DNA from: Candidatus Levybacteria bacterium RIFCSPHIGHO2_01_FULL_37_17
GTDB lineage: Bacteria > Patescibacteriota > Microgenomatia > Levybacterales > UBA12049
Length of the DNA: 58,864 bases
Assembly (NCBI GenBank): GCA_001782035.1
Contig: MFNL01000002.1
Coordinates: forward strand, 1 to 58,864
Direction: 5' to 3'
Numbering within the stretch: position 1 is the first letter of the stretch; every line of letters starts with the position of its first letter. The notes below the pieces were generated by a model, which was not told the DNA's origin, did not search any database, and saw nothing but the letters and a program-made list of their open reading frames with translations. Positions 3,540-52,659 of the stretch are shown in pieces. Made by a program: the position numbers and the translations under genes.

Positions 3540-3568
3540 ATAGAGCGCACTTATCTATAATTAAACTC

Positions 3569-4681: not shown

Positions 4682-4688
4682 ATTTAAC

Positions 4689-6829: not shown

Positions 6830-6831
6830 TT

Positions 6832-7488: not shown

Positions 7489-7490
7489 CC

Positions 7491-7520
7491 TTGACACCTA
7501 CCCGCAATTACCACTACAAT
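7491..7520 (+). promoter_or_regulatory. Sigma70-type promoter TTGACA-N18-TACAAT, 7 nt before GTG 7528
   Basis: TTGACA at 7491-7496 and TACAAT at 7515-7520. The predicted TSS coincides with the start codon. Confidence 0.6.
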
Positions 7521-7527
7521 AATCTGT

Positions 7528-35501: not shown

Positions 35502-36380
35502 ATGAAAGATAAATGTCCGGTATGTAGTTTACAAAAAACAATCCAACTCTATCCTGCAGACGTTGATGTTAAAAAGTTATCATTTACATATGTGAAAACT
35601 CCAAATTCGGGAAAAACCTTTCGTTCGGTGAAATGCTTAAACTGCACACATGTTTTTTGCTCACCCATACCTAAAAATATATATAAGAATTATGAAGATG
35701 TTGTTGATAGTGAATACTTAAAATATACAAAGTCCATAAGAGAATCGGCTAAAATTATTCTCCCAATTATTAAAAAGCATGTTACAAGCGGATTAATTCT
35801 TGACGTAGGCTGTGCAACTGGAGAATTTTTAAGCATTGCTAAACAATTTGGATACGAAGTGGAGGGTTTAGAGTTATCAAAATGGTCTTCAGAAATTGCA
35901 AGAAAGCGAAAACTTAAAGTTTATAATACACTGCTAAAAGTCCTTGCGAAAAAACATACAAATAAATATGATATTGTAACCTTGTTCGGTGTTATAGAGC
36001 ATTTCCAAGACCCAAGATTAGAAATGAAATCTTTGCAAAAGTTATTAAAACCTGGCGGGTTGCTTGTCGTATGGACAGGAGACGTTGATTCAATTAGCAG
36101 TAAATTGCTGGGCAAAAATTGGTGGTATTGGCAAGGTCAACATATTCAGTATTTTAGTGAAAAAAGTTTAAATCATCTTGCATTCAATTATGGAGTAAGG
36201 CATATACAGTCTAAAATCTATCCTTTTGTTGCATTTTATGGTCTTGTAGAAAACTCGTTAAGCAGGTATAAAATAAGACCTTTAATTATGGCGCTGTTGA
36301 CACCTTTATTTTTATTGAAACCTAGATGGACATTCTATATACCAGGTGAAATGTTATGGTTTGGTGTTAAAAAAACTTAG
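35502..36380 (+). CDS. Class I SAM-dependent methyltransferase with N-terminal Cys4 zinc ribbon
   Basis: 'CPVCS...CLNCTH' ribbon, motif I 'ILDVGCATGEFL', 'FGVIEHFQDP' and 'LKPGGLLVV'. Confidence 0.75.
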   Translation: MKDKCPVCSLQKTIQLYPADVDVKKLSFTYVKTPNSGKTFRSVKCLNCTHVFCSPIPKNIYKNYEDVVDSEYLKYTKSIRESAKIILPIIKKHVTSGLILDVGCATGEFLSIAKQFGYEVEGLELSKWSSEIARKRKLKVYNTLLKVLAKKHTNKYDIVTLFGVIEHFQDPRLEMKSLQKLLKPGGLLVVWTGDVDSISSKLLGKNWWYWQGQHIQYFSEKSLNHLAFNYGVRHIQSKIYPFVAFYGLVENSLSRYKIRPLIMALLTPLFLLKPRWTFYIPGEMLWFGVKKT

Positions 36381-38119
36381 TACTTTTTCATAAAATATTT
36401 AATTAAAAAAATGGTAATTAATATAGACAAAAGAGTAAAGCAGATTTTTTTTAACAAATCATATGTCGGAATATCCTTATATCTAAGTTCGATATAATAA
36501 TTTCCAGTAGGTAGTTTCGCATTTATTATGCCTCTATTTCCTGGGTAAATATCAATTTGCTTTCCATTAGCCGTCATTGTCCACCCGGGAAAATATAATG
36601 TATTTTCTCTAATTACGATGGGCGTTTTTGATTGTATATTATAGGAATGCATGATTGAAGTTCTTTCAACTTCTTTAACCATCGCAGCTCCTTCGATGAT
36701 TTCTAGGTGGGTTTTGGGTGGTTCAGAAAACCAAAAGTTATTGATATCTGCCCACTTATTATTTAAAAAATACGCAGTTTTTCCTTCTGTTAGGGTGCTT
36801 TTCCCTAGGTTTTGTATTAAAGTATTGTCGGAGATCTCAGGTATTACTCTTCTATGTCCCCAGTTTAATATCGTATATCCAATAGTTAATAGAATAACTA
36901 AAAGTATAATTATTTTATTTTTAGTTTGGTTTTTAAGGTTTAAAACAAAATAAGCGGCAACGATTGAGGTACAAAAAGCGACTATTACCAGTAATCTTCC
37001 AAACGGTAAAAGCATCCAAAACAGCGGGAAAGGCTTCCAAATGAAAGTTGATATTGGATGCATAATAAATAATATAGAAAAAAATATAATTAACCAAAAA
37101 ATTACACCATTTTTGAGAGTTCTTTTTAATTTTTTCGTAAAGAGAGAAACTGTCATTATTGATATTATTGCTACCTGTGTATATCCAATAATTTGAGCGA
37201 GTTCTCCGTTTGGACCTTGAAAAAGAAATCCAAGTCTCCAGGGAGAAAAAAATAGATACTTAAATTCATAAAATATGGGCTCAGCTGAAGAAATGGTGTA
37301 CATAAAAGGAGAATAAATCAAAAAAGATGACCATACATAAGCGGATGACAATACTCCTAAAACTAAACTGAAAATAACTGAAACGCTATGTTTATACTTT
37401 TTACTTTCTAGTCCTAAGAATATTGCGTAAAAAATTAATAAAATTGAGTAACATATTGCGATTAAAGGGTGAGCCATAACAAGTAATATTATCAAAATAC
37501 TATTTAGGATTAAGAAGTAAGACTTGTTGGTTCTAAAATACTTATGTATAGACAAAAAAACCAGAGGGGCAATTAAAAATACTGTTGATTCGCCTAAAGT
37601 TGCCCTAAAATGAACATCAATTAAATGATAAGGGTTAAAAACATAAAATATTGCTGCAATAAACGCTGCGAGCTTGTTTGAGGTAATTTCTCTAATTGCA
37701 AAATACATTGTTATCGATGATAAGTACAACGTCAGTCCTAAGAATAATTTAGTACTATCTATAAAACTCAGTCCTAAGGTGTGAAAGAAAGATATAACAT
37801 AATATGGTAAAGAATAGTTAAAAATAAATAAGGGATTGCCGTATGAGGAGTTAAGATCTGCTGCCCAAGACGGAATTAGTATTCCCTCTTTTAATGAATT
37901 ATAGAACGATATTATTCTGAAAACGTGAATATTAAAATCACCGCTTTCATAGGTTCCAGCTCGAAAAATGCTTAAAACCGGAAGAAGCGATATTAGCAAA
38001 AGTAAGATAAATAAGTTCACTTTCTTTTTGGGGTATATGTATGCATAAACGAACCAGGACAAGAAAACCACCATGCAACCAACTATATTGACAACGATCA
38101 TTCTATAGGGATCTATCAT
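36377..38119 (-). CDS. Large polytopic membrane protein with C-terminal extracytoplasmic domain (YfhO/GT-C-like, putative glycan transferase or polymerase)
   Basis: 580 aa with more than 10 hydrophobic helices. First loop 'GTYESGDFNIHVFRIISFYNSLKEGILIPSWAADLNSSYGNP'. Soluble ~130-aa domain followed by a terminal TM helix. The family assignment is tentative. Confidence 0.5.
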   Translation of the reverse strand: MIDPYRMIVVNIVGCMVVFLSWFVYAYIYPKKKVNLFILLLLISLLPVLSIFRAGTYESGDFNIHVFRIISFYNSLKEGILIPSWAADLNSSYGNPLFIFNYSLPYYVISFFHTLGLSFIDSTKLFLGLTLYLSSITMYFAIREITSNKLAAFIAAIFYVFNPYHLIDVHFRATLGESTVFLIAPLVFLSIHKYFRTNKSYFLILNSILIILLVMAHPLIAICYSILLIFYAIFLGLESKKYKHSVSVIFSLVLGVLSSAYVWSSFLIYSPFMYTISSAEPIFYEFKYLFFSPWRLGFLFQGPNGELAQIIGYTQVAIISIMTVSLFTKKLKRTLKNGVIFWLIIFFSILFIMHPISTFIWKPFPLFWMLLPFGRLLVIVAFCTSIVAAYFVLNLKNQTKNKIIILLVILLTIGYTILNWGHRRVIPEISDNTLIQNLGKSTLTEGKTAYFLNNKWADINNFWFSEPPKTHLEIIEGAAMVKEVERTSIMHSYNIQSKTPIVIRENTLYFPGWTMTANGKQIDIYPGNRGIINAKLPTGNYYIELRYKDIPTYDLLKKICFTLLSILITIFLIKYFMKKY

Positions 38120-39966
38120 AAATCAATTTTGTAAAGGTAATAGTACGGATATACTAAATAACTAGAAATCAGTGAATAGTTTTTGCAATCATTTATGCTG
38201 AGCTTAGAGCAAAACCATAAAATATCTCCTCCCCGTATCATTAATTTGGTTACTCCTACCTCTCTTAATTTTTCCATAGATTTATTATTACTTTCAAAGA
38301 TACTATTCACGTCCATAAAATTAAAGTCAGCATAATAATACCCATGAAAGTTATACATGGCAACAATGTCGTTCTTCTGAATAAATTTATCAAATTTATA
38401 ATCAAAATCGAAATAGCTTGAATTGTCCCGTGTTAAGACCCTTGATAAATACTTATTTTTATCTGATAGGCCAAATGCGTAGGGTAATACAAAAACAGAT
38501 GAAATAAAATAATATGCAAACGTTATAAATACTAGTAAATATAACGCGTATTTTATTCTAGACACTTGTTGTAGGGCAAAATAAATTCCTAACGAGGCTA
38601 TAAATAATAATAAAACATACACTCCTAACAGATATCTTCCGTATGGATAATTTATAAATAAATATATCAACGAAACGATAAGGGTCATTTGAAAGATTGG
38701 ATAGTTTTTAATTGTTAAGATAGCTTCTTTAATTTTAGAAAATAAAAGTGCTATTCCCAAAAACAAAAAGGGACTATAAACATTTATACTAGAGAGTGGG
38801 TTTAAAAAATTTGTGTTAATGGTAAAATACCTTTGAATGTTATAGGTGTATTTCAATCCATTAAGGGTTTCAAAGGTTTGAAATGCGGGGAAAAAAGGAT
38901 TGCCAGTCGATAAATAAGCCCTAAAAAACCATATTCCAGAAACAAAAATTACTCCGAGTGCGTATATCCCAATAATTTTAAACCTACTTTCAATTTTAGC
39001 ATTCTTAGACAAGAAAATAAAAAACAACGCAATTATAGGAATTAATATGATTGTCCACAACTTTGTCGCAACCATTCCGCCGATAAATAAACCTACTAGA
39101 AATACAGTTTTGTTAGTTAACTTTCTATTTGCAAAAAGTAATAAAATTGAAAGTATAAGTAAAAAGATCCATTGGAAGTCAACATACATTGACGATGTTT
39201 CCCTAATAATTTCAGGAGTCGTTACAAAAACTAACGGTATAAATTTTGCAAAAGCAAAATTTTTTATTTTTGCAAAACTAACGAGCGATAAAATGCATAA
39301 AATATAAAATAAAAAATGAATGTACCTTGCTGTTTCTTTCGACAGTAAAAATATGCCAGGTATATAGTACATCTCTGCGAGCATGGAGCTTCCCGATACA
39401 TGCAGGTCTTCGCTTGGCGGTATCATTATTGTCTGTTCGCGCAAGTAAATTCTTGGAAAATCAACGTGATATTGGTCTTCCCTTGTTTCAGGATTTATTA
39501 AGTTGACTGAAGCTACTAGAACAAAAAGGAAGACACCTATAAATACTAAATTATTTCTCTTAAGTAAAATCATGCAAGATATTAACTGTTTCTTAAACTC
39601 ACCAAGGTTCAGGCACAACTTTTTAAAGGGATATATAGCAATAAATATTATTGTAAAAATATAAAAACATAAAATTGCTGGTTTTAATAAAGAAAAAAAG
39701 CCTAGCAGGGTTATTCCTGTTGAAATCGCAATATAACCCAAAGCAGTTGATACAAGAAAATCAAATTCGATAATTTTTTTAGGATAAAAAACGTCTTTAA
39801 GCCTTTTTCCTAGTAAATAAGAGATGAGAGAAATAAATATTGCATAAAGTAGGTAAGTAGCAAAAATTAATAAGGGCGAAAAATCAACTGGTTCTCTCGT
39901 GTAGTCTGAAATTACATAATCAAACTTTGAAACAAGATTTCTAATAAGGTTGAAGAATAAATGCAT
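38116..39966 (-). CDS. GT-C-like polytopic membrane glycosyltransferase (ArnT/PMT-like)
   Basis: 616 aa and highly hydrophobic, with a loop 'PETREDQYHVDFPRIYL' after the early helices and a soluble C-terminal domain. 4-nt overlap with the downstream gene. Confidence 0.5.
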   Translation of the reverse strand: MHLFFNLIRNLVSKFDYVISDYTREPVDFSPLLIFATYLLYAIFISLISYLLGKRLKDVFYPKKIIEFDFLVSTALGYIAISTGITLLGFFSLLKPAILCFYIFTIIFIAIYPFKKLCLNLGEFKKQLISCMILLKRNNLVFIGVFLFVLVASVNLINPETREDQYHVDFPRIYLREQTIMIPPSEDLHVSGSSMLAEMYYIPGIFLLSKETARYIHFLFYILCILSLVSFAKIKNFAFAKFIPLVFVTTPEIIRETSSMYVDFQWIFLLILSILLLFANRKLTNKTVFLVGLFIGGMVATKLWTIILIPIIALFFIFLSKNAKIESRFKIIGIYALGVIFVSGIWFFRAYLSTGNPFFPAFQTFETLNGLKYTYNIQRYFTINTNFLNPLSSINVYSPFLFLGIALLFSKIKEAILTIKNYPIFQMTLIVSLIYLFINYPYGRYLLGVYVLLLFIASLGIYFALQQVSRIKYALYLLVFITFAYYFISSVFVLPYAFGLSDKNKYLSRVLTRDNSSYFDFDYKFDKFIQKNDIVAMYNFHGYYYADFNFMDVNSIFESNNKSMEKLREVGVTKLMIRGGDILWFCSKLSINDCKNYSLISSYLVYPYYYLYKIDL

Positions 39967-39994
39967 TTATTCTAATGTATTCTAAACTACAAGA

Positions 39995-40003
39995 TGTTAT
40001 AAT
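39995..40003 (+). promoter_or_regulatory. Extended -10 promoter TGtTATAAT, 11 nt before ATG 40015
   Basis: Read directly in the 48-nt divergent spacer. Confidence 0.5.
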
Positions 40004-40014
40004 TTCAACAAATA

Positions 40015-42600
40015 ATGGCTCTAATAAAAACCTCTTTAATTTGCACTGTACTAAATGAAGAAGAATCTGTTCAAGAACTTATTGATTCTATTATAAATCA
40101 ATCTGTAATGCCAGATGAAATTATTATTGTTGATGGCGGTAGCACAGATAGTACTACGGAAGTTATAATGGCCAAAATAAAAAATGATTCCAACTTAAAC
40201 CTCAAGCTGTTTATTAAAAAGGGTAATAGATCAATAGGAAGAAATAAAGCAATAGAAGAAAGTTCGGGAGATATTATCCTGTCCACTGATGCGGGTTGTA
40301 TCCTTGAAAAAAACTGGGTAAAAAACATTCTTGAACCATTTAAAAACAAAAAGACGGATATTGTCGCAGGATACTATAAAGGGACAGGTAGGAATTCATT
40401 TGAAAAATCGCTTATACCTTATGTGCTCGTTATGAAGGACAGAGTTGTCTCTAATGATTTTCTACCGGCAACGCGTTCTGTGGCTTTTAAAAAGAGCGTA
40501 TGGAGAAAAGTTGGTGGTTTCGATAAAAATCTTTCTCATAATGAAGATTATGCTTTCGCAAATAAGATAAAGCGTCAAGGTTTTAAAATTTACTTTCAAA
40601 AATCTGCAGTTGTTAACTGGATACCCCCAAGGAGTATATTTAAGGCTTTTAAAATGTTTTTCAGCTTTGCATATGGGGACATTGAAGCACATTTGATAAG
40701 AGATAAGGTGATTTACATTTTTCTAAGATATTCATTTGGAATTTATTTACTTATTTTAGCATTGATTATGAAATCAATTTATTTAACCTCTTTAGTGACT
40801 GTTCTAGGATTAAGCTATGTAGCATGGTCAATAAAAAAAAATTATAAATATGTGAAAAATTATGAGGGTTTTTTATTTTTACCCTTAATTCAAATTACAT
40901 CAGATATCGCCGTAGTTTCGGGCTCTATACTTGCCCTGCTCAATAAGGTTTCTATAAAAAAGATTATGGGAAAACTTATCCAGAATAAAGGAATAACAGT
41001 TTTGGTACTAATTTACGCCGGAATAATGGTCTCAATGATTAATTGGGGTATACCAAATATTAGTCATCCATTCAATTATTTTATGGATGAATGGCATCAA
41101 GCGCAATCTATAAGAAATTTATTTACTCAAGGCACGATTAATATAGAGGGATCTGCTAATGGCTCAATTTTTCATTTTTTCCTATCAGGACTTTTTTTAG
41201 TACCGTTTTATTTGTTGGGAATAATTAATCCTTTTGCAATTGAGTCCTCAGTTTCTAATCTTGAACTTCAAGGAAACCTGTTTGTAGTTTTAAGATTGAA
41301 TACTTTGCTTTATGGATCAATGTCAATAATAATTTTTTATTATATTTGTAAGAAATATTTTAATCTTAACCCTTTGATATCAAGTATGGTGTTTATTTTT
41401 AATCCCGCCTGGATTATGCTAAGCAACTATTTTAAGTATGATATCGCATTAATGTTTTGGACACTGTTAAGCTTTCTTATTATGTTGAAATATATAAATA
41501 ACCCAACCTTTATAAGTTTATTATTGGCAGCTATTATATCGTCGATTTCATTATCTGTTAAATTACAACCCTTTTTCTTCCCAATACTTTTAATTATAAT
41601 ATTTTTAAAATTTACTCCCGATTTCAAGCAAAAGTTAAAATGGATTTTTATTTCGCTTTTTGTTTATGCAATTGTTTTTATTTCTTTGGGAATACCCGAT
41701 ATCCTTCTTGCAAAAGGCGATTTATCCGAATATTTGTCTTCAGTCCTTATAAGAACGCCTGAGCATAATGTTTCAAATATAATAATCAACGAAAATATAT
41801 GGCAATATCTTGTTACAAATATTTACCCAACTTTATTTGGTATTGTTTTATTCTTTGTGAGTGCTCTATTTATATTTATTATCTTAATGAGAATCGTCGT
41901 TGTAAGTATCATGCGAAAGAGCAAGGAACAGTTTTTTACGAAAGAGGAGCTTTTTTTGATTATAGCATTCGGTTTATTCACATTAAGTCTTATTCCCTTA
42001 AGACTCGATGCAACTGGCAATAGGGCATTAATTCTTCTACCATTCTTTGCAATATTTTTTGCTCTTTTTTGGCAAATTGCATTCAGGCTTATCAATAAAA
42101 AAATCGTTTTATTACTGCTTGTTGTTTTTTTATTGATACAAACCATTCAGACAATTGTATGGATTGAGCAAAAAATATTGGAAGATCCTCGAAAACTATC
42201 TTCTGAGTGGATTTTGAACAATGTTCCAAAAAATTCTACAATCGGGGTAGAAAATATTCCCATTTACCAGATGCTGCCCGATATAGTTTTAAGAGAGTAT
42301 TATCTAAAGAAACAAAATTTAAATTTTAAAACTTATTATAATTATAAAGTTATAAACAAAAATGAAAATATGTATCCTAAATTTGTCGTTTTAACAAATG
42401 GAAGTATAGTGGGTAAGTATTTTAGAAAATCAGAGAAAACCCAGATTAAAAAAACGTTAAAAAAGAAAGGGTATAGAGAAGTTGCAGTTTTTTCTCCCAA
42501 TTTTTCAAACTTAAAATTCTTCACGAGCGATATTCAATATTATCAGTCCGCAATTATTCAGGTACCTATTAATTTAGCTATCTATGAAAAAAATGATTAA
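40015..42600 (+). CDS. Fusion protein: N-terminal GT2 (GT-A) glycosyltransferase + C-terminal GT-C (ArnT/PMT-like) membrane glycosyltransferase
   Basis: Residues ~1-230: 'SLICTVLNEEESVQELIDSIINQS', 'IIVDGGSTDST' and 'DAGC' (GT2, DxD-like). These are followed by more than 10 TM helices with the loop 'FMDEWHQAQSIRNLF' (GT-C first-loop acidic motif) and a soluble C-terminal tail. Uninterrupted 861-codon ORF. Confidence 0.7.
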   Translation: MALIKTSLICTVLNEEESVQELIDSIINQSVMPDEIIIVDGGSTDSTTEVIMAKIKNDSNLNLKLFIKKGNRSIGRNKAIEESSGDIILSTDAGCILEKNWVKNILEPFKNKKTDIVAGYYKGTGRNSFEKSLIPYVLVMKDRVVSNDFLPATRSVAFKKSVWRKVGGFDKNLSHNEDYAFANKIKRQGFKIYFQKSAVVNWIPPRSIFKAFKMFFSFAYGDIEAHLIRDKVIYIFLRYSFGIYLLILALIMKSIYLTSLVTVLGLSYVAWSIKKNYKYVKNYEGFLFLPLIQITSDIAVVSGSILALLNKVSIKKIMGKLIQNKGITVLVLIYAGIMVSMINWGIPNISHPFNYFMDEWHQAQSIRNLFTQGTINIEGSANGSIFHFFLSGLFLVPFYLLGIINPFAIESSVSNLELQGNLFVVLRLNTLLYGSMSIIIFYYICKKYFNLNPLISSMVFIFNPAWIMLSNYFKYDIALMFWTLLSFLIMLKYINNPTFISLLLAAIISSISLSVKLQPFFFPILLIIIFLKFTPDFKQKLKWIFISLFVYAIVFISLGIPDILLAKGDLSEYLSSVLIRTPEHNVSNIIINENIWQYLVTNIYPTLFGIVLFFVSALFIFIILMRIVVVSIMRKSKEQFFTKEELFLIIAFGLFTLSLIPLRLDATGNRALILLPFFAIFFALFWQIAFRLINKKIVLLLLVVFLLIQTIQTIVWIEQKILEDPRKLSSEWILNNVPKNSTIGVENIPIYQMLPDIVLREYYLKKQNLNFKTYYNYKVINKNENMYPKFVVLTNGSIVGKYFRKSEKTQIKKTLKKKGYREVAVFSPNFSNLKFFTSDIQYYQSAIIQVPINLAIYEKND

Positions 42601-44501: not shown

Positions 44502-44512
44502 TTATCTTGGGT

Positions 44513-44541
44513 ATTATATCCTCTGACTAGAAAGATTTCAA
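44513..44541 (-). promoter_or_regulatory. Promoter TTGAAA-N17-TATAAT (minus strand), 11 nt before ATG 44501
   Basis: On the + strand, tttcaa at 44536-44541 and attata at 44513-44518. Confidence 0.55.
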
Positions 44542-44571
44542 TATTTTTCTGATATACTTAAATAGATATAT

Positions 44572-45795: not shown

Positions 45796-46907
45796 TGAAA
45801 ATAGCAGTCTTTTATAACATAGATTTCAGTGGCGCAAAACGTGTAGTTAAAGAACATGTCAAGGGATTAAAACAGCATGGTCATGCTGTGGATTTATATA
45901 CAACAGATGAAGCCTTTGATATTTTCCATCCAAAACCATATTCTGACAAGACTTTCATATACTCCTTTTCTCCTTTTGTAATTAATTTACCCGTATTAAG
46001 AAGAGTTAAGAGCGATTTTATAGATACATTTATTCTCCTAAGAAGGCTTCACGAAAAGATAGCAAGAGATATAGATAATAATCGCTATGATTTAGTTTTG
46101 GTCCATACAGATATTTATACACAAGCACCTTTTCTTCTTCGATTTCTTAAAACTAAAAATGTTTATTACTGCCTTGAACCCTTAAGGAATGCATATGAAT
46201 ATTCCTTAAGGCTAAAAAGTGGAAATTTATTAAACAAATTGTATGAAAATTTAAATAGGTGGATTAGAAAGAGGATAGATTTGAAAAATGTTCTATCGAC
46301 AAATGAGTTACTAACTATCTCGTTATTCTCAAGGGAAAGAATTATCGCAGCTTATGATAGAATCGCTGAAGTTTCATATATCGGCGTAGATGAAAATATC
46401 TTTAAGCCTGTAAAAGTCAATAAAAAGAATCAGGTGTTATTTGTCGCAGATAAAGACCCAATTTATGGTTATGATCTTGCGGAAAAAGCAATTAACCTTA
46501 TTCCAACAGAATTTAGGCCTACGTTAAAAGTTATTACCTGGAAAAAAGAGAACTCCCAACGATTAAGCGATAAGGAATTAATTATGACATATAACGAATC
46601 ATTAGTTACTCTTTCCTTAAGTAAGCTTGACACCTTCGGATTGGTAAGCTTGGAATCACTATCTTGTGGTGTTCCCGTTATCGCATTAAATGTTGCAGGA
46701 TATCGGGAAATAATCGAAGACGGAAAATCGGGATTTCTTGTGGATTTTAGGCCTGAAGAAATTGCAGAGAAAATATTATTTTTTATAAAAAACAAAGAAG
46801 CTGCGGAAAAAATGGCGATAGAATCGCGAAAAATCATTTTAGCCAAGTGGAAATGGCAAAGTTTGATAAAGAAGCTAGACAATAAATTAAGAATATTAAG
46901 CAAATGA
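45795..46907 (+). CDS. Glycosyltransferase family 4 (GT-B)
   Basis: 'MKIAVFYNIDFSGAKRVV' and 'LDTFGLVSLESLSCGVPVIALNVAGYREII'. Confidence 0.75.
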   Translation: MKIAVFYNIDFSGAKRVVKEHVKGLKQHGHAVDLYTTDEAFDIFHPKPYSDKTFIYSFSPFVINLPVLRRVKSDFIDTFILLRRLHEKIARDIDNNRYDLVLVHTDIYTQAPFLLRFLKTKNVYYCLEPLRNAYEYSLRLKSGNLLNKLYENLNRWIRKRIDLKNVLSTNELLTISLFSRERIIAAYDRIAEVSYIGVDENIFKPVKVNKKNQVLFVADKDPIYGYDLAEKAINLIPTEFRPTLKVITWKKENSQRLSDKELIMTYNESLVTLSLSKLDTFGLVSLESLSCGVPVIALNVAGYREIIEDGKSGFLVDFRPEEIAEKILFFIKNKEAAEKMAIESRKIILAKWKWQSLIKKLDNKLRILSK

Positions 46908-49105
46908 ATAAGCCAAAAGTCTCTGTTGTAATAGTTAATTATAAAAATGAAATAGATATTTTTGAATGCCTAGACTCTATATATAAGACGAAGTCAAGAT
47001 CTTTATTAGAAATCATAATTGTAGACAACAGTGGGGAAGATTCTCTAAGAGGTAAATTAAACAAGTATAAAAACATAAAATATATTCTTTCTTCAACTAA
47101 CCTTGGATACGGTGCAGGAATGAACCTAGGAGTGAAGCATGCAAAAGGTGACTATTTATTTATTTTGAATCCAGACACAATTTTTACTGGGAATATTATT
47201 GATAGATTGGTAACAGTCATAGATAAAGATAAAAAAATAGGGATAGTAGCGCCTTTGCTTATTACAAAAAAGGGAGAAATATTTGAGCAGGGGGCAAAAA
47301 AATTAACCCCATTAACGGCAATTTTCAAATTATCTTTCATTGATAAAATCTGGAAATCGAACCCCATTTCTCAAAATTTCTGGGCTAGTAACTGGGAAAA
47401 AACACTAAAGAAAGTTGATAATGTGCCCGGGTCAGCTTTTATTATTCGAAAAGACTTATTTAAAAAACTAAGTGGATTTGATGAGCATTTTTTCCTATAT
47501 TTCGAAGAATTTGATTTATGCAATAGAGTAAGAGCGCAAGGATACAGAATATTTATAGATCCTGCTTCTAAGCTAATTCATAAATGGGGGACTACTACGA
47601 AAATGCTAAAAAATAGAGATGAAATTTTTAGGAAAAGTAGATTTTATTACTTTAAAAAGCACTTTGGAGTTTTGAAAGCATTAGGCGTTGATTTTTTTTT
47701 AAGTATTAACCTCTCGTATTTTGCACTATTCCCAATTGTTCTTGTTGCAGCATTAATTCGTTTCTATAAAATAGATGAGTTAATTCCTTTCTATCCCGAC
47801 ATCGGTTGGTTTTATATTTCTGCAAGAGACATGTTGGTTAGTGGGCAAATTCCATTAGTTGGAATAACATCTAGCCATCTTTGGTTACATCAAGGCCCGA
47901 TTTGGACATATGTTTTGGGAACTCTTTTTTATTTTTATAGCTTTAGTCCAATTATTCCTGCTATTTTTACCGCTATATTAGATTTATTTACCTTAGTTCT
48001 AGTATATAAGTTAGTGAAATATATTTTTGACAGAAAAACCGCATTACTCGCTTCTACTCTTTATGCTTTTTCTCCTATTGTGATTCTTAGCTCTAGAACG
48101 CCTTATCATACTTCTCTCATTCCTTTTTTTGTTACTCTTTTCTTTTACTGCCTTTTTAAATGGATTGACGGGAAAAAATACTATTTTCCTCTTTTGATGT
48201 TTACTTTAGCAGTTTTGTATAATTTAGAGCTTCAATCTGTAATTTTTATATTAATTTTTGCTGTAGTTTTCTTTTATGGTGTTTACAAAGAGAAAAATTG
48301 GATTATGGAAATTAAAAATTCAAAAGTGATCCTGCTTTCGCTATTTGCATTTTTAGTTCCTATGCTTCCAGTTTTTCTCTATGACATTAGGAATGGATTC
48401 CCACAAACAATAGTATTTGCTGGCTGGCTTGTTTATAAACTATTTTCCCCAATAATTTCTAACAGTCCAATGAATTACGGAGCTGATGCTACTCAAATGC
48501 TAAATTATTTTTATATTTTTTTTCAAAAACTCTTGTTTCTTCCTAGTGCTTTTGTGGCAACTATGATGATTTTTCTTTCACTTTTTTTTCTTGTTTTTAA
48601 AGCAATAAAAAATAATAAGGAAAAGCATATTTATGCTATTCTTTTCTTCTCTATTTTGACTCTATTAGCTTCCACATATCTAACTAAAAGTCCTGCAGAC
48701 GCATATCTTATGTCAATGTTTGTTCTCATTCTTATCCCCGTTTCTTTACTGTTAAAGTCTATCGCTTCAAAGACAAACTATTTTCTTATTTTCTTTGTTG
48801 TTCTGATTATTTCAGCTATCAATTATTACTGCTTAATCTCGAATAACTACTTACTAGGATTTAACAAGGGATATGGTGCAACATTTAAAGACAGAATGGG
48901 TACCGCTTCCTACATTGTGGAGAGCTCGGGAAATAAAAAGTTTTCAATCCAAGGAAGAGGAGAGGGAAGTGAGTTTGAAAGCTTCACAATGGGCTACGAT
49001 TTCCTTACATGGTATATAGGGAAAGGCCCAAGTGATGATTTCGATTTGCTTTACATTATAGAGGAAAGCCCGAACGAAATAAGAATAGAGAGGAAAGAAT
49101 TATGA
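46904..49105 (+). CDS. Fusion protein: N-terminal GT2 (rhamnosyltransferase-like GT-A) + C-terminal GT-C (ArnT/PMT-like) membrane domain
   Basis: 'VSVVIVNYKNEIDIFECLDSI', 'IIVDNSGED', 'NLGYGAGMN', 'LNPDT' and 'PGSAFIIRKDLF', followed by more than 10 TM helices starting with 'PFYPDIGWFYISARDML' and a soluble tail. Uninterrupted 733-codon ORF. Confidence 0.7.
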   Translation: MNKPKVSVVIVNYKNEIDIFECLDSIYKTKSRSLLEIIIVDNSGEDSLRGKLNKYKNIKYILSSTNLGYGAGMNLGVKHAKGDYLFILNPDTIFTGNIIDRLVTVIDKDKKIGIVAPLLITKKGEIFEQGAKKLTPLTAIFKLSFIDKIWKSNPISQNFWASNWEKTLKKVDNVPGSAFIIRKDLFKKLSGFDEHFFLYFEEFDLCNRVRAQGYRIFIDPASKLIHKWGTTTKMLKNRDEIFRKSRFYYFKKHFGVLKALGVDFFLSINLSYFALFPIVLVAALIRFYKIDELIPFYPDIGWFYISARDMLVSGQIPLVGITSSHLWLHQGPIWTYVLGTLFYFYSFSPIIPAIFTAILDLFTLVLVYKLVKYIFDRKTALLASTLYAFSPIVILSSRTPYHTSLIPFFVTLFFYCLFKWIDGKKYYFPLLMFTLAVLYNLELQSVIFILIFAVVFFYGVYKEKNWIMEIKNSKVILLSLFAFLVPMLPVFLYDIRNGFPQTIVFAGWLVYKLFSPIISNSPMNYGADATQMLNYFYIFFQKLLFLPSAFVATMMIFLSLFFLVFKAIKNNKEKHIYAILFFSILTLLASTYLTKSPADAYLMSMFVLILIPVSLLLKSIASKTNYFLIFFVVLIISAINYYCLISNNYLLGFNKGYGATFKDRMGTASYIVESSGNKKFSIQGRGEGSEFESFTMGYDFLTWYIGKGPSDDFDLLYIIEESPNEIRIERKEL

Positions 49106-49860
49106 TAAGTGTGGTTATACTAACAAAAAATGAAGAAGAAAATATTATTGATTGTCTTGAGAAAATCTTATGGGTTGATGAGATTATAATAATCGACGAT
49201 AATTCTGAAGATAGAACTATTGAGGTAATAAAATCACTAAATAATGGGAAAATTAAAATTTATGAAAGATGGCTAAACAATAATTTTTCTGAACAGAGGA
49301 ATTTTGGTTTATCAAAATCGACAAAAGAATGGGTGTTGTTTATTGATGCAGACGAAAGAGTATCTGAAGAGCTGAAGGATGAACTCAATTCAATTGTTAT
49401 AAATAAAGATAGGAAGAGTATTGGATTTTTAATAAAAAGAGTAGATTATATATGGGGTAAGAAGTTAAAGTATGGAGAGGTTGGGAACTTAAAACTTCTG
49501 CGCTTTGCTAAGCGAGGCTCAGGATCGTGGGTAGGAAGCGTTCACGAAGAATGGCAGATTGACGGAGACGTGAGCGAATTAGAAGCCGAGCTCTTACACT
49601 ATCCCCATCCGAATGTAAAAGAATTTTTATGGGAGATAAATTTTTATTCCTCACTGAAATCAAAAGAGTTATTTGAAAATAAAATCAAAATGAGCCCACA
49701 GGATACATTACTGTACCCCTTAGGTAAATTTATTAGAAACTATTTTTTTAAATTAGGTTTTTTTGACGGATTAGAGGGTTTAGTATTTGCAATAATGATG
49801 AGCTTTCATTCGTTTCTTGTTAGGGGAAAACTTTGGCTTTTATGGAACAAAAAATTATAA
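49102..49860 (+). CDS. Stand-alone GT2 glycosyltransferase
   Basis: 'ISVVILTKNEEENIIDCLEKILWVDEIIIIDDNSEDRT' and 'IDADER'. ATGA overlap with the upstream gene. Confidence 0.75.
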   Translation: MISVVILTKNEEENIIDCLEKILWVDEIIIIDDNSEDRTIEVIKSLNNGKIKIYERWLNNNFSEQRNFGLSKSTKEWVLFIDADERVSEELKDELNSIVINKDRKSIGFLIKRVDYIWGKKLKYGEVGNLKLLRFAKRGSGSWVGSVHEEWQIDGDVSELEAELLHYPHPNVKEFLWEINFYSSLKSKELFENKIKMSPQDTLLYPLGKFIRNYFFKLGFFDGLEGLVFAIMMSFHSFLVRGKLWLLWNKKL

Positions 49861-49933
49861 ATTTATTCTTTTTTATTTGGTCTTTTTTCATTCTTCTTTT
49901 GTACCTATCCTACCTTTTTTGTAGGGCAGATTT

Positions 49934-51493
49934 ATGTTTACTGTTGCGTTTTTAACAGGTATATACAGTTATATAATATTTATTTTAGGAATTTTAAATA
50001 AGCTTTATAGTGGCCATATCTTACTTTTCACATTTGCATATTTAGTTTTGTGCGTCGTTTTGTTTAGAATAAGAATCAAGGATTTTTATTTAAAGATAAA
50101 GAAAAGAACAATTCGTCTACATAACTTACCTAAATTATTTTTCTCTTTAATAATAATTCAGTGTTTAATAAATTTTATCGGCGCTTTGGGCCCGGAGCTT
50201 TCTTTCGATGCGCTTTGGTATCATCTAACATTACCTAAACTGTTTTTTGAGCAACATTCAATATTTTTTATTCAGGGAAACCTACTTTATTATTCATTGT
50301 TTCCAAAACTTGGTGAAATGCTTTATATTGCTTCTCTTTCGATAAACGGAGAAATATTAGCAAAGATTTTACATTACACTTTCGGCATATTGACGCTACT
50401 TGTTATTTATAAAATATCTAAAAAATTTCTTAATAACGTATTCTCAACACTTGCATGTTTAATATTTTCATCAAACCTAGTTTTTGCTTGGCAGTCTACC
50501 ACAGCCTATATTGATCTATTTAGAACTTTTTTTGAAGTATTAGCATTATGGGCTTTTTTAAATAAAGATACTGTTAAATCTGCGGTTTCCTTAGGTTTTG
50601 CAATTTCGACGAAGCTTTCGGCGATTGGATCTATTCCAATTTTTGCAGTACTGTATCTAATTTTTGATAAAAAAAACTTCAGATCCATAATTTTATTCAC
50701 ATTGCTTGCACTAATAATTCCTTCCCCTTGGTTTATATTTTCTTTTATAAACTCCGGCAGACTGTTTTATCCACTTTTCACAGATTTGTACCCAGATCAA
50801 CTTATACTCAACGTTAGTCCCCTCGATATCGTTGTTGATTTTTTCAAATTATTTTTATACTCTCCCGATCCTATTTCTCCGCTTTATTTAATATTATTGC
50901 CCGTAGTTTTTATTTTATATAAAAAGCTGAATAGACACTTAAAAATTCTTGCAGTTTACAGTTTATTAAGCTTAATAATCTGGTATTTTATACCAAGAAC
51001 CGGCGGTGGAAGATTTATCCTCCCTTATTTGCCTGCATTTTCTATTCTCTCTGCAGGAGTAATTTTTTACCTAGACATGAGAATGCGAAAATTTTTATTA
51101 ATAATTGCTGTCTTAATTGCTTTAACAACTATTTTTTATAGAGGAGCTACGAACGCGAAATTTGTGCCCGTGATAATAGGAAGTGAAACAAAAGAGCATT
51201 TTCTCTCCGTCAGGCTCAATTTTAATTTTGGAGACTTCTATGATATAGATAGCTATTTTGCTAAAAACTTAACAAGCTCTGACAGAGTTCTCTTATATGG
51301 CTTTCACAATTTGTATTATGTTGAATTCCCTTTTATTGATTCATCGTGGATAAAAAGGGGAGATAGGTTTAATTACATTGCCACTCAAAACATACAACTT
51401 CCAGACAGATTTAAAGATTGGATGCTTATTTACTATAATAAAGTAACAGGTGTAAAACTTTTCACTCATAATAAAACTGTATGGATATACTAA
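49934..51493 (+). CDS. GT-C (ArnT/PMT_2-like) membrane glycosyltransferase
   Basis: 519 aa, polytopic, with a first loop 'GPELSFDALWYHLTLPKLF' and a soluble C-terminal domain. An in-frame TAG at 49922 fixes ATG 49934 as the first possible start. Confidence 0.6.
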   Translation: MFTVAFLTGIYSYIIFILGILNKLYSGHILLFTFAYLVLCVVLFRIRIKDFYLKIKKRTIRLHNLPKLFFSLIIIQCLINFIGALGPELSFDALWYHLTLPKLFFEQHSIFFIQGNLLYYSLFPKLGEMLYIASLSINGEILAKILHYTFGILTLLVIYKISKKFLNNVFSTLACLIFSSNLVFAWQSTTAYIDLFRTFFEVLALWAFLNKDTVKSAVSLGFAISTKLSAIGSIPIFAVLYLIFDKKNFRSIILFTLLALIIPSPWFIFSFINSGRLFYPLFTDLYPDQLILNVSPLDIVVDFFKLFLYSPDPISPLYLILLPVVFILYKKLNRHLKILAVYSLLSLIIWYFIPRTGGGRFILPYLPAFSILSAGVIFYLDMRMRKFLLIIAVLIALTTIFYRGATNAKFVPVIIGSETKEHFLSVRLNFNFGDFYDIDSYFAKNLTSSDRVLLYGFHNLYYVEFPFIDSSWIKRGDRFNYIATQNIQLPDRFKDWMLIYYNKVTGVKLFTHNKTVWIY

Positions 51494-52659
51494 AAATTTC
51501 TCTAATATTTCTGCTCCTACTGTTTCCTATTGCAGAGTTGGGCAAATTCCATCTAGGGTTAATTTCATTTTCTATCAACGATTTATTAATGGGATCGGTG
51601 GTAATTGCGTGGATATTTAAGCATAAGTTTTCCTTACAAAACGTTCTTTTAAAGGAGCCCATGCTTGTGGTCTTTGCTACATTCTCAACGTCTTTGCTTT
51701 TAAATATAGGTTGGCTGGAATTACCTGATTTTTTTATATCGTTGCTATACCTAATTAGATTGCTTTTGTATGCTTCTTTATATGCAATTATTTTATCGCT
51801 TGACAAGAAGTTCATTCAAAAATTAAAGCTCTTTCTGATTATTCCAATTTCGTTATTCCTTATATCTGGATATATTCAGTTTTTTCTATATCAAAACCTA
51901 AGAAATTTATATTATTTAGGTTGGGATGAACACCTTTATAGATTATTTTCTACTTTTCTTGATCCAAACTTTGCCGGGACTTTCTTTGTGCTTACTTTTA
52001 TATATCTATTATATCTTGTCTTTTCAAATTTAGAGAACAGATTTTTATTTATATCTTTATCTTTTTTATCTATAGCAAATTTTATAGCCATATTTTTAAC
52101 TTACTCAAGAAGCGCTCTTATTATGCTTTTTGTTTCCTTATTTACCTTCTTGGTCTTGATTAGAAGAAAGAGTCTGCTGGTAATGGTTGGAGTAGCCATC
52201 ATAATATTTTTAGTAATTTCTCCTAAATCTTTTCGAACAGAAGGAACAAACATTTTTAGAATTGCATCATCTGAAGCAAGATTAGATTCAGCTAGGGTTG
52301 CAATAGAGATTTTCAGCAAAAACCCTATATTTGGAGTCGGTTTTAACGCTTATAGGTTTGCACAGCATAGGTATGGATATCTCGCGGGAGGCGATTGGAG
52401 GCTTACTCATTCGGGTGCCGGAACAGACAATAGTTTCCTTTTTATTCTAGCTACAACAGGACTGGTTGGTTTTGCTGCTTATATTTATTTAATTTACAAG
52501 ATTATACGGATGGCAATTAAAAAGAATAATTTTATAGCAAAAGTGTTAATTGCGTCTCTAGCTGGACTTTTAATAAACTCATTATTTATAAATAGCTTGT
52601 TTTTTATATATATTATGATGTGGATATGGATTATGGTCGCATTTACGGAGAGTAGTTGA
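51481..52659 (+). CDS. O-antigen ligase / Wzy_C family membrane protein (polymerase, ligase or O-oligosaccharyltransferase)
   Basis: Polytopic protein with 'LTYSRSALIMLF', an external loop 'RIASSEARLDSARVAIEIFSKNPIFGVGFNAY' and 'HSGAGTDNSFL'. This is typical of WaaL/Wzy_C/PglL-type proteins. Confidence 0.7.
   Translation: MDILKISLIFLLLLFPIAELGKFHLGLISFSINDLLMGSVVIAWIFKHKFSLQNVLLKEPMLVVFATFSTSLLLNIGWLELPDFFISLLYLIRLLLYASLYAIILSLDKKFIQKLKLFLIIPISLFLISGYIQFFLYQNLRNLYYLGWDEHLYRLFSTFLDPNFAGTFFVLTFIYLLYLVFSNLENRFLFISLSFLSIANFIAIFLTYSRSALIMLFVSLFTFLVLIRRKSLLVMVGVAIIIFLVISPKSFRTEGTNIFRIASSEARLDSARVAIEIFSKNPIFGVGFNAYRFAQHRYGYLAGGDWRLTHSGAGTDNSFLFILATTGLVGFAAYIYLIYKIIRMAIKKNNFIAKVLIASLAGLLINSLFINSLFFIYIMMWIWIMVAFTESS

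What the first reader, a model, noticed from the sequence alone, without database searches (positions are those of the whole stretch)
36377..52659. System-level hypothesis: a multi-GT-C lipid-linked sugar relay, possibly protein or cell-wall O-glycosylation with methylated sugars
The window encodes about seven GT-C-type membrane transferases, several of them assigned only tentatively: 1-915?, 916-2355, 36377-38119?, 38116-39966, 40015-42600, 46904-49105 and 49934-51493. It also encodes a Dpm1-like polyprenol-P-sugar synthase (42584-43294), a GDP-mannose-forming enzyme (5747-6829), a Wzx flippase, and a Wzy_C-family protein (51481-52659). The Wzy_C family includes the PglL/PilO O-oligosaccharyltransferases that glycosylate pilins. 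Two Zn-ribbon SAM methyltransferases are present (35502-36380 and the C-methyltransferase-like 43275-44501). No outer-membrane or LPS core genes are seen, so the acceptor is probably a surface protein (pilin, S-layer, or the adjacent Ig-like protein 52643-53353) or a wall polymer. This density of GT-C paralogs in a small compact genome is unusual, and their acceptors are unknown.
Basis: inference. Interest (0 to 1): 0.68.

Follow-up and report, generated by a model that had tools for sequence, protein, structure and literature searches.

The report
Multi-GT-C surface glycan locus in Levybacteria
A tiny uncultured groundwater bacterium (Candidate Phyla Radiation, Levybacteria) carries a conserved gene cluster that most likely builds a cell-surface sugar polymer by passing lipid-linked sugars across the membrane; two of its enzymes are unusual fusions of the inside and outside halves of that relay, and the final acceptor is still unknown.

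Summary
The observation largely holds. Six of the seven proposed GT-C transferases are supported by family, profile or fold evidence: 916-2355, 36377-38119, 38116-39966, 40015-42600, 46904-49105 and 49934-51493. The seventh (1-915) is the C-terminal tail of a 1053-aa Wzy_C-like protein, and its GT-C status is unproven. The Dpm1-like GT2, ManC, Wzx, Wzy_C and both Zn-ribbon methyltransferases are confirmed.

In relatives the two halves of the first fusion are separate genes. They are adjacent, or they flank the Wzx flippase (GT2-Wzx-GT-C). This is the gene logic of known multicomponent transmembrane glycosylation systems such as GacIJKL, WpsA/G/J and CsbB/YfhO.

The locus sits between signal peptidase and the ATP synthase operon across Levybacteria (8 genome loci and 41 metagenome loci). 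A minimal core is GT4, membrane GT2, Wzx, GT2 and Wzy_C. The GT-C genes, the Dpm1-like GT2 and the C-methyltransferase are accessory.

The lipid-linked relay reading is supported by inference. The acceptor (wall or surface glycopolymer, protein or lipoglycan) cannot be decided here, and nothing specifically supports a PglL-type protein O-glycosylation. I class it as a new variant of a known kind, of moderate interest.

The parts
34379..35440 (+). GT4 (GT-B) cytoplasmic glycosyltransferase. First gene of the conserved locus and part of the minimal core.
   Evidence: Pfam Glyco_transf_4 and Glycos_transf_1. Ortholog present after signal peptidase in 7 of 8 related genome loci and in the minimal loci L061, L093, L077 and L082.
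35502..36380 (+). SAM methyltransferase with an N-terminal Zn ribbon (CPVC...CLNC). Accessory gene.
   Evidence: Methyltransf_23, 103 bits. Sequence read. Ortholog only in L008 among the genome loci.
36377..38119 (-). GT-C 'C': PTPS_related/YfhO-like polytopic transferase.
   Evidence: PF10131, 46.9 bits against a cutoff of 26.4, plus a weak YfhO C-terminal hit. About 10 hydrophobic segments. hhalign to the G family gives E 2.5e-4. Ortholog present in all 7 loci that cover the position.
38116..39966 (-). GT-C 'D': divergent ArnT-like transferase with no family hit of its own.
   Evidence: BLASTP 2.6e-21 to gene I. hhalign 96.7% to the GT-C domain of E. AF2 pLDDT 90.5. Foldseek best match is ArnT 5f15 (TMt 0.55 over 580 columns), followed by PglB, STT3, AftA, ALG9 and Pmt. 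Invariant P159, D164, Y166 and H167 in the loop after TM.
40015..40974 (+). E-N: membrane-embedded GT2 module (GT-A domain, interface helix and about 3 TM helices) of fusion protein E.
   Evidence: Glycos_transf_2, 78 bits. Invariant D40, D45, D92 and E177-D178. Best structural match is PcManGT 6yv7 (TMt 0.63 over 338 columns), and also hyaluronan synthase. Occurs as a standalone gene of about 313-322 aa in L019, L021, L061, L077, L093 and L103.
40975..42600 (+). E-C: PMT-like GT-C domain of fusion protein E, with a C-terminal soluble domain.
   Evidence: PMT, 35.5 bits against a cutoff of 22.7. Invariant M357-D358-E359-W360-H361 in the first outside loop. AF2 pLDDT 88 for the whole protein. 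Only 400 relatives among 1.84 billion representatives, both fused and standalone.
42584..43294 (+). F: Dpm1/DPMS/ArnC-like polyprenol-phosphate sugar synthase without TM helices. Overlaps the end of E by 17 nt.
   Evidence: PDB DPMS 5mlz E 1e-19 and ArnC E 2e-11. NCBIfam AglJ, ArnC, PgfS and PpgS. MDSDLAHDP and GSRY motifs. Co-occurs with D in related loci.
43275..44501 (-). Zn-binding NDP-sugar-type C-methyltransferase.
   Evidence: Methyltransf_14 (158 bits) and Methyltransf_13 (44 bits). The most conserved gene of the locus, at 60-70% identity in 7 of 8 genome loci.
44572..45795 (+). Wzx/MOP-family flippase. Core gene.
   Evidence: Polysacc_synt_3, 230 bits. MOP flippase, 189 bits. Lies between the standalone E-N and E-C genes in L019.
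45795..46907 (+). GT4 cytoplasmic glycosyltransferase.
   Evidence: Glycos_transf_1, 77 bits. Present in 6 of 8 genome loci and 18 of 41 metagenome loci.
46904..49105 (+). G: second GT2-GT-C fusion, a WbbL/rhamnosyltransferase-like GT2 plus an ArnT/PMT_2-like GT-C.
   Evidence: Glycos_transf_2 (74 bits) and PMT_2 (28.4 bits). TIGR01556, 65 bits. Invariant N89-P90-D91, D193-E194, E201 and D204 in the GT2 part, and D299/W302 in the GT-C part. 725 relatives, mostly full-length fusions in Levybacteria/Microgenomates. The GT2 half occurs alone in L036.
49102..49860 (+). H: small GT2. Core gene.
   Evidence: Glycos_transf_2, 75 bits. Present in 39 of 41 metagenome loci.
49934..51493 (+). GT-C 'I': PMT_2-type paralogue of D.
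   Evidence: PMT_2, 26.6 bits against a cutoff of 26.1. D-family HMM gives 4e-89 and shares the P-E-x3-D-x-x-Y-H loop motif. Present in 35 of 41 loci.
51481..52659 (+). J: Wzy_C-family membrane protein (polymerase or ligase). Core gene.
   Evidence: Wzy_C, 67 bits against a cutoff of 31.7. PEP_O_lig_1 at 31 bits, repeat-unit polymerase at 22.7 bits and TfpM at 16 bits are all below their cutoffs. 156 relatives found in metagenomes.
52643..53353 (-). Membrane-anchored protein with two Ig-like domains, convergent with J. Its association with the system is uncertain.
   Evidence: Glucodextran_B, 61 bits. N-terminal TM anchor and no Ser/Thr-rich region. Adjacent to J in 39 of 41 loci, but atpC/atpD are equally syntenic.
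1..9504 (+). Second, upstream glycan cluster: tail of a 1053-aa Wzy_C-like protein (1-915), GT-C 'B' (916-2355), three GT4 genes (2352-5750), ManC (5747-6829), a WbaP-type phosphoglycosyl transferase (6832-7488) and a DUF4012 protein (7528-9504).
   Evidence: Just outside the window, upstream, lie a GT4 and a WcaF-like acetyltransferase.

Best explanation
This is a lineage-conserved cell-surface glycan assembly locus of a Levybacteria (CPR/Patescibacteria) genome. It works through polyprenol-phosphate-linked intermediates.

Core pathway (inferred):
- Three enzymes build a short lipid-linked glycan on the cytoplasmic face: the membrane-embedded GT2 module E-N, the GT4 at 34379 and the small GT2 H.
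- The Wzx flippase moves the glycan outward.
- The Wzy_C protein J polymerises it or ligates it to its acceptor.

Accessory layer (inferred):
- The Dpm1-like GT2 F charges polyprenol phosphate with a hexose. This is plausibly mannose from GDP-mannose made by ManC.
- The GT-C enzymes C, D, E-C, G-C and I (and B upstream) transfer single sugars or short glycans from such lipid donors onto the glycan outside the membrane.
- The C-methyltransferase and the second methyltransferase tailor a sugar.

Two GT-C enzymes are covalently fused to their cytoplasmic GT2 partner. This ties the inside step and the outside step of one relay into one polypeptide.

Shown here: the family or fold identity of each component, conservation of catalytic motifs in both halves of both fusions, the split, adjacent and fused architectures, and the synteny.

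Inferred: the order of the reactions, the donors, and the acceptor. The acceptor is most likely a wall-associated or surface glycopolymer rather than a protein.
For: - Component identities.
- GT-C fold of the unassigned paralogue D.
- Homology among D, I and the GT-C domains of E and G.
- Conserved catalytic residues in both halves of E and G across 39 and 32 orthologues.
- The E-N module best matches the membrane GT2 PcManGT, including its TM helices.
- Rosetta-stone evidence. L019 carries a GT2 (47.5% identity to E 1-320), then Wzx (43%), then a GT-C (43% identity to E 321-861). L103 has the two genes 27 nt apart. L021 has them in one locus..
- About 20 fused and about 45 unfused clusters among the best 150 relatives of E-C.
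- The minimal loci contain GT4, E-N, Wzx, H and J.
- F and D co-occur.
- Genes are tightly overlapping, which suggests co-translation.
- GC is lower than in the flanks, as is typical of surface-glycan loci.
- The mechanism has a precedent in three- and four-component systems and in the lactococcal Wps pathway: PMC9574508.
Against: - There is no biochemical or glycan data for any CPR organism.
- By sequence, E-N and G-N are closer to TarS, TarP, WrtF and WbbL-type GT2s, which act on glycan acceptors, than to Dpm1/GtrB-type lipid-phosphate GT2s. They may therefore be ordinary elongating transferases rather than donor synthases.
- No GtrA-type flippase or GacJ-type activator ORF is present.
- No LCP ligase, Wzz or backbone polymer genes (rml/rgp, tag/tar) occur in the window.
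- The only phosphoglycosyl transferase is 27 kb away.
- Wzy_C proteins normally use diphosphate-linked donors, which would need that PGT.
- The whole neighbourhood is syntenic, so gene adjacency carries limited functional information.
Confidence: 0.6

Rival explanations
1. Protein O-glycosylation. Und-P-sugars made by F (and by E-N) are used by PMT/YfhO-like GT-Cs to glycosylate Ser/Thr of surface or membrane proteins, as in the streptococcal Pgf/PgtC and actinobacterial PMT systems. Alternatively, J acts as a PglL-like O-oligosaccharyltransferase on pilin, an S-layer protein or the adjacent Ig-like protein.
For: - E-C hits Pfam PMT and has an invariant PMT-like D-E-x-H loop motif.
- F's NCBIfam matches include PgfS.
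- GT-C-mediated protein O-glycosylation in monoderm bacteria is established (PMC12041528).
- The Ig-like membrane protein is next to J in 39 of 41 loci.
Against: - No MIR or PMT_4TMC domains occur in any of the proteins.
- J gives no PglL_A or Wzy_C_2 hit, and TfpM scores only 16 bits against a cutoff of 600.
- No pilin gene, and no Ser/Thr/Pro-rich extracytoplasmic segment in any window protein, including the Ig-like protein.
- The presence of Wzx, three or four cytoplasmic GTs and a Wzy_C protein fits an oligo- or polysaccharide better than a monosaccharide protein modification.
Confidence: 0.18
2. Lipoglycan assembly of the actinobacterial LM/LAM type. GDP-mannose (ManC) and cytoplasmic GT4 mannosyltransferases start a membrane-anchored glycolipid. 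A Ppm1-like enzyme (F) makes polyprenol-P-mannose. A series of GT-C mannosyltransferases (like PimE, MptA, MptB and MptC) extend it outside the membrane.
For: - ManC, five GT4 genes, a Dpm1/DPMS-like GT2 lacking TM helices (as in PpgS and Ppm1 D2), and six GT-Cs are all in one 59-kb window.
- AftA and ALG9 are among the structural matches of D.
Against: - No GT87, GT53 or PimE-type Pfam hit.
- No PI synthase or PimA equivalog.
- The presence of Wzx and Wzy_C is not part of the LM/LAM scheme.
- The sugar identity is untested.
Confidence: 0.12
3. An ordinary Wzx/Wzy capsule or exopolysaccharide locus. Here E-N and G-N are simply repeat-unit glycosyltransferases, and the fusion to GT-C domains has no mechanistic meaning beyond co-expression. 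Some of the weakly scoring GT-Cs would then be non-catalytic or do unrelated jobs.
For: - A WbaP-type PGT is present at 6832-7488.
- Wzx and Wzy_C are present.
- The GT2 domains of E and G resemble glycan-elongating GT2s by sequence.
- Several PMT_2 scores are barely above the cutoff.
Against: - Catalytic loop acids are invariant in the D, E and G families.
- The fusion is maintained in hundreds of orthologues at 40-60% identity.
- The unfused halves stay adjacent or flank Wzx.
- A Dpm1-like enzyme has no role in a pure Wzx/Wzy scheme.
Confidence: 0.1

Closest known systems
Four-component and 'complex' transmembrane glycosylation systems of rhamnose-rich wall polysaccharides: S. pyogenes GacI/J/K/L, and L. 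lactis WpsA/B, WpsC-F, WpsG, WpsI/H, WpsJ (PMC9574508)
   Same: A GT-A enzyme loads sugar on C55-P. Cytoplasmic GTs extend it. A Wzx-family flippase (not GtrA) exports it. GT-C enzymes polymerise or transfer it outside. The gene order GT2-Wzx-GT-C seen in L019 mirrors gacI-(J)-K-L.
   Different: - The GT-A and GT-C components are fused in one polypeptide (twice).
- The fused GT2s are not GacI/GtrB-like by sequence.
- There is no GacJ/WpsB activator.
- There are no rhamnan (rml/rgp) or LCP genes nearby.
- There are five to six GT-Cs in one locus.
- The organism is a CPR bacterium with unknown envelope chemistry.
Three-component systems: GtrA/GtrB/GtrV, CsbB/GtcA/YfhO, ArnC/ArnT, CsdA/CflA/CsdB
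   Same: A Dpm1/GtrB-type GT2 (F) is paired with an ArnT-like or YfhO-like GT-C (D, C). F and D co-occur across loci, like ArnC/ArnT or CsbB/YfhO gene pairs.
   Different: There is no GtrA-type small flippase ORF. F lacks the C-terminal TM helices of GtrB, ArnC and PfDPMS. The acceptor is unknown.
PcManGT (Pyrobaculum calidifontis membrane GT2, PDB 6yv7), a 'minimal cellulose-synthase-like fold'
   Same: It is the best structural match of the E-N module over the whole chain including the TM helices (TMt 0.63). From memory of the original paper (J Mol Biol 2020, not held here), it is a GDP-mannose-, dolichyl-phosphate- and Mn-dependent mannosyltransferase with three TM helices.
   Different: Sequence identity is 15%. 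It is archaeal and is not fused to a GT-C. Its exact product is itself unsettled.
Protein O-mannosyltransferases (GT39) and the streptococcal Pgf/PgtC systems (PMC12041528)
   Same: Pfam PMT match and a D-E-x-H loop-1 motif in E-C. Polyprenol-P-sugar donors.
   Different: There are no MIR domains and no PMT_4TMC domain. No identified Ser/Thr-rich targets were found.
Mycobacterial Ppm1 / PimE / MptA-C / Emb / Aft lipoglycan and arabinogalactan GT-C series
   Same: Many GT-C paralogues are fed by a soluble-type polyprenol-P-sugar synthase. Ppm1 is itself a fusion of a synthase with a membrane domain.
   Different: No GT87, GT53 or GT85 family hits. Ppm1's partner domain is Lnt-like, not a GT-C.

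Membership tests
GT-C glycosyltransferase superfamily (fold level) | Polytopic membrane protein with 8-13 TM helices | tested here: met
   Hydropathy scan of B, C, D, E, G and I. DSSP of the AF2 models of E and D.
GT-C glycosyltransferase superfamily (fold level) | Conserved acidic residue(s) in the first extracytoplasmic loop (modified DxD) | tested here: met
   E family has invariant D358-E359. D family has invariant D164 plus E160/E163. I keeps P-E..D..YH. G family has invariant D299. B and C were read only in the single sequence, so they are inconclusive.
GT-C glycosyltransferase superfamily (fold level) | Structural similarity to solved GT-C enzymes | tested here: met
   The top 18 Foldseek hits of the D model are all GT-C enzymes or the GT-C-like GPI transamidase subunit PIG-U (ArnT, PglB, STT3, AftA, ALG9, ALG3, Pmt1/2, Pmt4, GPI-MT-I). 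The GT-C domain of E was not searched separately, because GT2 hits fill the list.
GT-C glycosyltransferase superfamily (fold level) | Use of a polyprenol-phosphate-linked donor | not testable with these tools
   Needs an enzyme assay.
GT39 protein O-mannosyltransferase (PMT) | Pfam PMT N-terminal domain with a loop-1 DE motif | tested here: met
   Met by E only: PMT 35.5 bits and the motif MDEWH.
GT39 protein O-mannosyltransferase (PMT) | Luminal MIR domains and a PMT_4TMC C-terminal domain | tested here: not met
   No MIR or PMT_4TMC hit at E <= 0.01 in any of the proteins.
Dpm1/GtrB/ArnC polyprenol-phosphate glycosyltransferases (GT2) | Sequence similarity to characterised members, with the (M)DxDLxHxP and GSR(Y) motifs | tested here: met
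   F: DPMS 5mlz E 1e-19 and ArnC E 2e-11; motifs read. All NCBIfam equivalog scores are below their cutoffs, so F is not an orthologue of any named enzyme.
Dpm1/GtrB/ArnC polyprenol-phosphate glycosyltransferases (GT2) | Same test applied to the fused GT2 domains E-N and G-N | tested here: inconclusive
   DPMS, GtrB and ArnC score lower than TarS, TarP and K4CP. However, the whole E-N module including its TM helices best fits PcManGT.
Three/four-component transmembrane glycosylation system | GT-A lipid-sugar synthase, flippase and GT-C encoded together | tested here: met
   F/E-N, Wzx and several GT-Cs lie in one locus. The order GT2-Wzx-GT-C occurs in L019.
Three/four-component transmembrane glycosylation system | GtrA-family small flippase or GacJ-type activator | tested here: not met
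   No free small ORF in 34.2-53.5 kb; the genes abut or overlap.
Three/four-component transmembrane glycosylation system | Identified acceptor polymer pathway (O-antigen, WTA/LTA, rhamnan) | tested here: not met
   No rml/rgp, tag/tar, ltaS or LCP family was hit in any window ORF scanned. The rest of the genome was not examined.
Wzx/Wzy-dependent polysaccharide pathway | Initiating phosphoglycosyl transferase, Wzx and Wzy | tested here: inconclusive
   A WbaP-type PGT lies at 6832-7488, 27 kb from the locus. Wzx is confirmed. J is in the Wzy_C family but cannot be resolved as polymerase or ligase. No Wzz/PCP was found.
PglL/PilO/TfpM O-oligosaccharyltransferase | Wzy_C domain plus PglL-specific regions, with a pilin or target protein nearby | tested here: not met
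   Wzy_C is present. There is no PglL_A or Wzy_C_2 hit. TfpM scores 16 bits against a cutoff of 600. There is no pilin gene in the window.

The most novel reading that the evidence does not exclude
The GT2-GT-C fusions are self-contained trans-membrane glycosylation machines. In this reading, the PcManGT-like half-channel TM module of the GT2 makes a polyprenol-P-sugar. It then hands the sugar across the bilayer directly to its own fused GT-C domain. Synthesis, translocation and transfer would be coupled in one polypeptide without a dedicated flippase. This would address the long-standing question of how polyprenol-monophosphate sugars are flipped.
Probability: 0.1. Interest if true: 0.85.

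Novelty: new variant of a known kind. Interest (0 to 1): 0.5.

Why it matters
CPR/Patescibacteria are a large part of bacterial diversity. They live attached to other cells, and almost nothing is known about their surface chemistry. A phylum-wide conserved locus with a small core and a variable set of extracytoplasmic GT-C decorators is a concrete candidate for the glycan that mediates envelope integrity, host attachment or phage recognition in Levybacteria.

The two fused GT2-GT-C proteins, together with naturally split versions that flank a flippase gene, offer a compact experimental handle. One can ask how the cytoplasmic and extracytoplasmic halves of lipid-linked glycosylation are coupled. 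They also give an automatic pairing of a GT-C with its donor-forming partner, which is usually hard to infer.

Tried and rejected
- Sequence searches of D, C, J and the DUF4012 protein against PDB chains found nothing useful. A D-family profile also found nothing. Only the fold search resolved D.
- The E-family profile against PDB returned GT2 hits only. The fold search with the whole E model was also dominated by GT2 hits. The GT-C half of E therefore rests on Pfam PMT, the loop motif and hhalign to D.
- Gene A (1-915) could not be settled. Pfam and NCBIfam give only weak Wzy_C/IctB hits. hhalign and hmmsearch to my GT-C profiles are not significant.
- Literature searches for CPR, Patescibacteria or Levybacteria combined with GT-C or glycosyltransferase terms, and for GT2-GT-C fusions, found no paper describing this locus or these fusions. 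The PcManGT paper is not held.
- I considered that the apparent split of G in one assembly (L004) was a natural disruption. It is a 10-N scaffold gap.
- I considered the Ig-like neighbour as a glycosylation target. It has no Ser/Thr-rich region, and its synteny is no stronger than that of the atp operon.
- A teichoic-acid or known capsule orthology was rejected, because every NCBIfam equivalog hit is far below its cutoff.

Full report
**Source and context.** The window is 100% identical to NCBI MAG contig MFOU01000002.1 (GCA_001782495.1). It is also identical to contigs from JGI, ENA and Logan assemblies of aquifer samples. The closest genomes are Candidatus Levybacteria (Patescibacteria/CPR), with 45-60% protein identity in the locus.

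The window is compact with about 35% GC. It carries a dcw peptidoglycan cluster (PBP, Mur ligases, MurA, MraY, FtsW, MurG, FtsA, FtsZ) and an F1Fo ATP synthase operon. No outer-membrane or LPS-core family was detected. The region from 36 to 52 kb has lower GC (0.30-0.33) than its flanks.

**Checking the observation.** All ORFs are present as listed.

| Gene | Coordinates | Evidence for GT-C status |
|---|---|---|
| B | 916-2355 | PMT_2 above cutoff; hhalign to the G-family GT-C domain |
| C | 36377-38119 | PTPS_related above cutoff; weak YfhO C-terminal hit; weak hhalign to the G family |
| D | 38116-39966 | No family hit; see below |
| E | 40015-42600 | PMT above cutoff |
| G | 46904-49105 | PMT_2 above cutoff |
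| I | 49934-51493 | PMT_2 above cutoff |

Gene D is a clear paralogue of I (BLASTP 2.6e-21). Its family profile aligns to the GT-C domain of E at 96.7% probability. Its AlphaFold model (pLDDT 90.5) matches ArnT best (TMt 0.55 over 580 columns), followed by PglB, STT3, AftA, ALG9 and Pmt1/2/4.

Loop acids expected of GT-C catalysis are invariant:
- MDEWH in the E family.
- P..E..D.YH in D and I.
- IGDQGWFY in the G family.

The seventh proposed GT-C (1-915) is only the tail of a 1053-aa protein. Its N-terminus is weakly Wzy_C/IctB-like. A PMT_2-like second half, with an FNGDDFTW motif after a TM helix, is suggestive but not significant.

The other components hold up:
- F is Dpm1/DPMS/ArnC-like.
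- ManC, Wzx, Wzy_C, the C-methyltransferase and the Zn-ribbon methyltransferase are confirmed.

E and G are fusions. Each has an N-terminal cytoplasmic GT2 domain with intact nucleotide-sugar and base motifs, a few TM helices, and then a GT-C domain.

Both fusions are maintained full-length in hundreds of Levybacteria/Microgenomates orthologues at 40-66% identity. The E-N module, including its TM helices, best matches the membrane GT2 PcManGT and also resembles hyaluronan synthase. From memory, PcManGT is a dolichyl-phosphate-dependent mannosyltransferase.

**Fusion and split evidence.** The GT-C domain of E has only about 400 relatives among 1.84 billion representative proteins. About 20 of the best clusters are fused and about 45 are standalone. 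The contexts of standalone members are informative:

| Locus | Arrangement |
|---|---|
| L019 | PTPS_related (-), then GT2 (47.5% identity to E 1-320), Wzx (43%), GT-C (43% identity to E 321-861) |
| L103 | GT2 and GT-C genes side by side, 27 nt apart |
| L021 | Both genes in one locus, with Wzx, a GT4, a G-like fusion, an F-like GT2 and a C-methyltransferase |

A GT-A gene, a Wzx-family flippase and a GT-C gene in a row is the signature of the four-component GacIJKL and lactococcal Wps systems (PMC9574508). This is the strongest support for a lipid-linked relay.

**Conservation and modularity.** In eight genome loci, the order is GT4-(MT)-C-D-E-F-CMT-Wzx-GT4-G-H-I, kept with losses and rearrangements.

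In 41 metagenome loci of 10 kb or more that carry a J orthologue, the gene counts are as follows:

| Gene | Loci with the gene (of 41) |
|---|---|
| H | 39 |
| I | 35 |
| Ig-like gene | 39 |
| atpC | 33 |

Minimal versions (L061, L093, L077) contain only GT4, standalone E-N, Wzx, H, (I) and J. The core therefore looks like a small oligosaccharide pathway ending in a Wzy_C enzyme. C, D, E-C, F, the C-methyltransferase, the second GT4, G and I are accessory decorators. F and D are present or absent together in the genome loci, which suggests an ArnC/ArnT-like pair.

**Mechanism and its limits.** My best reading (confidence about 0.6) is a surface glycopolymer assembled on polyprenol phosphate, exported by Wzx and handled by J. 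Outside the membrane it is decorated by several GT-Cs that use polyprenol-P-sugars made by F and perhaps by the fused GT2 modules.

Several points weaken this reading:
- By sequence, the fused GT2 domains resemble glycan-elongating GT2s more than Dpm1-type enzymes.
- No GtrA or GacJ homologue exists.
- No backbone or ligase genes are in the window.
- The general synteny of this chromosomal region weakens inferences from adjacency.

The rivals are protein O-glycosylation, an LM/LAM-like lipoglycan, and a plain Wzx/Wzy exopolysaccharide with incidental fusions. All remain open. For protein glycosylation specifically I found no positive sign. There are no MIR domains, no PglL-specific hits, no pilin, and no Ser/Thr-rich extracytoplasmic segments in window proteins.

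**Novelty.** No held paper describes this locus or GT2-GT-C fusions in CPR. The components and the logic are known. The fused architecture, the number of GT-C paralogues in a genome of this kind, and the phylum-wide core-plus-accessory layout are a new variant. Interest is moderate. The finding is a good experimental entry point rather than a surprise.

Noticed in passing
window 1-915; L016:1501-4662: The first ORF is the tail of a 1053-aa membrane protein. It has a Wzy_C/IctB-like N-terminal half, a large loop, and then a second TM module. That module begins with FNGDDFTW and carries a weak PMT_2-like stretch. It may be a Wzy_C-GT-C fusion.
   Followed up: partly
window 36000-52000: GC content drops to 0.295-0.33, against 0.35-0.39 in the flanking housekeeping genes. 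This is typical of surface-polysaccharide loci.
   Followed up: no
L061:4035-9221, L093, L077: Relatives carry a minimal version of the locus (GT4, standalone E-N GT2, Wzx, H, J) without any PMT-type GT-C. The GT-C genes are therefore accessory.
   Followed up: partly
window 38116-39966 and 42584-43294; L008-L014, L088: The ArnT-like GT-C D and the Dpm1-like GT2 F are gained and lost together across related loci. This suggests a donor-synthase/transferase pair.
   Followed up: partly
window 52643-53353 (-): A membrane-anchored protein with two Ig-like domains is convergent with the Wzy_C gene, overlapping it by 17 nt. This arrangement is kept in 39 of 41 loci. It also gives a very weak hit to the CPR pilus protein PamR model (19.9 bits against a cutoff of 300).
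   Followed up: partly
window 20885-21646: A 253-aa nucleotidyltransferase (NTP_transferase) sits inside the dcw cluster between murA and mraY.
   Followed up: no
window 7528-9504: A 658-aa single-TM DUF4012 protein directly follows the WbaP-type phosphoglycosyl transferase. It has no NCBIfam or PDB match. It could be the chain-length or ligase partner of the upstream cluster.
   Followed up: partly
L020, L021, L103: Related loci place other sugar-tailoring genes next to the C-methyltransferase: a split transketolase pair, a carbamoyltransferase, a DegT aminotransferase, a GDSL esterase and extra methyltransferases. This implies chemically diverse, heavily modified sugars across the lineage.
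   Followed up: no
window 22698-23765 and 31147-32229: There are two SEDS (FtsW/RodA) genes. The second one follows IleRS, outside the dcw cluster.
   Followed up: no
L004:12577-14780: The G gene appears split into two ORFs in one ENA scaffold. This is caused by a run of 10 N and is not a real disruption.
   Followed up: yes
L007-L009, L011, L012 record titles: Several related MAG contigs are titled 'uncultured Gammaproteobacteria bacterium'. They nevertheless carry this Levybacteria-type locus at 46-50% identity, so the record titles are probably generic or wrong.
   Followed up: no
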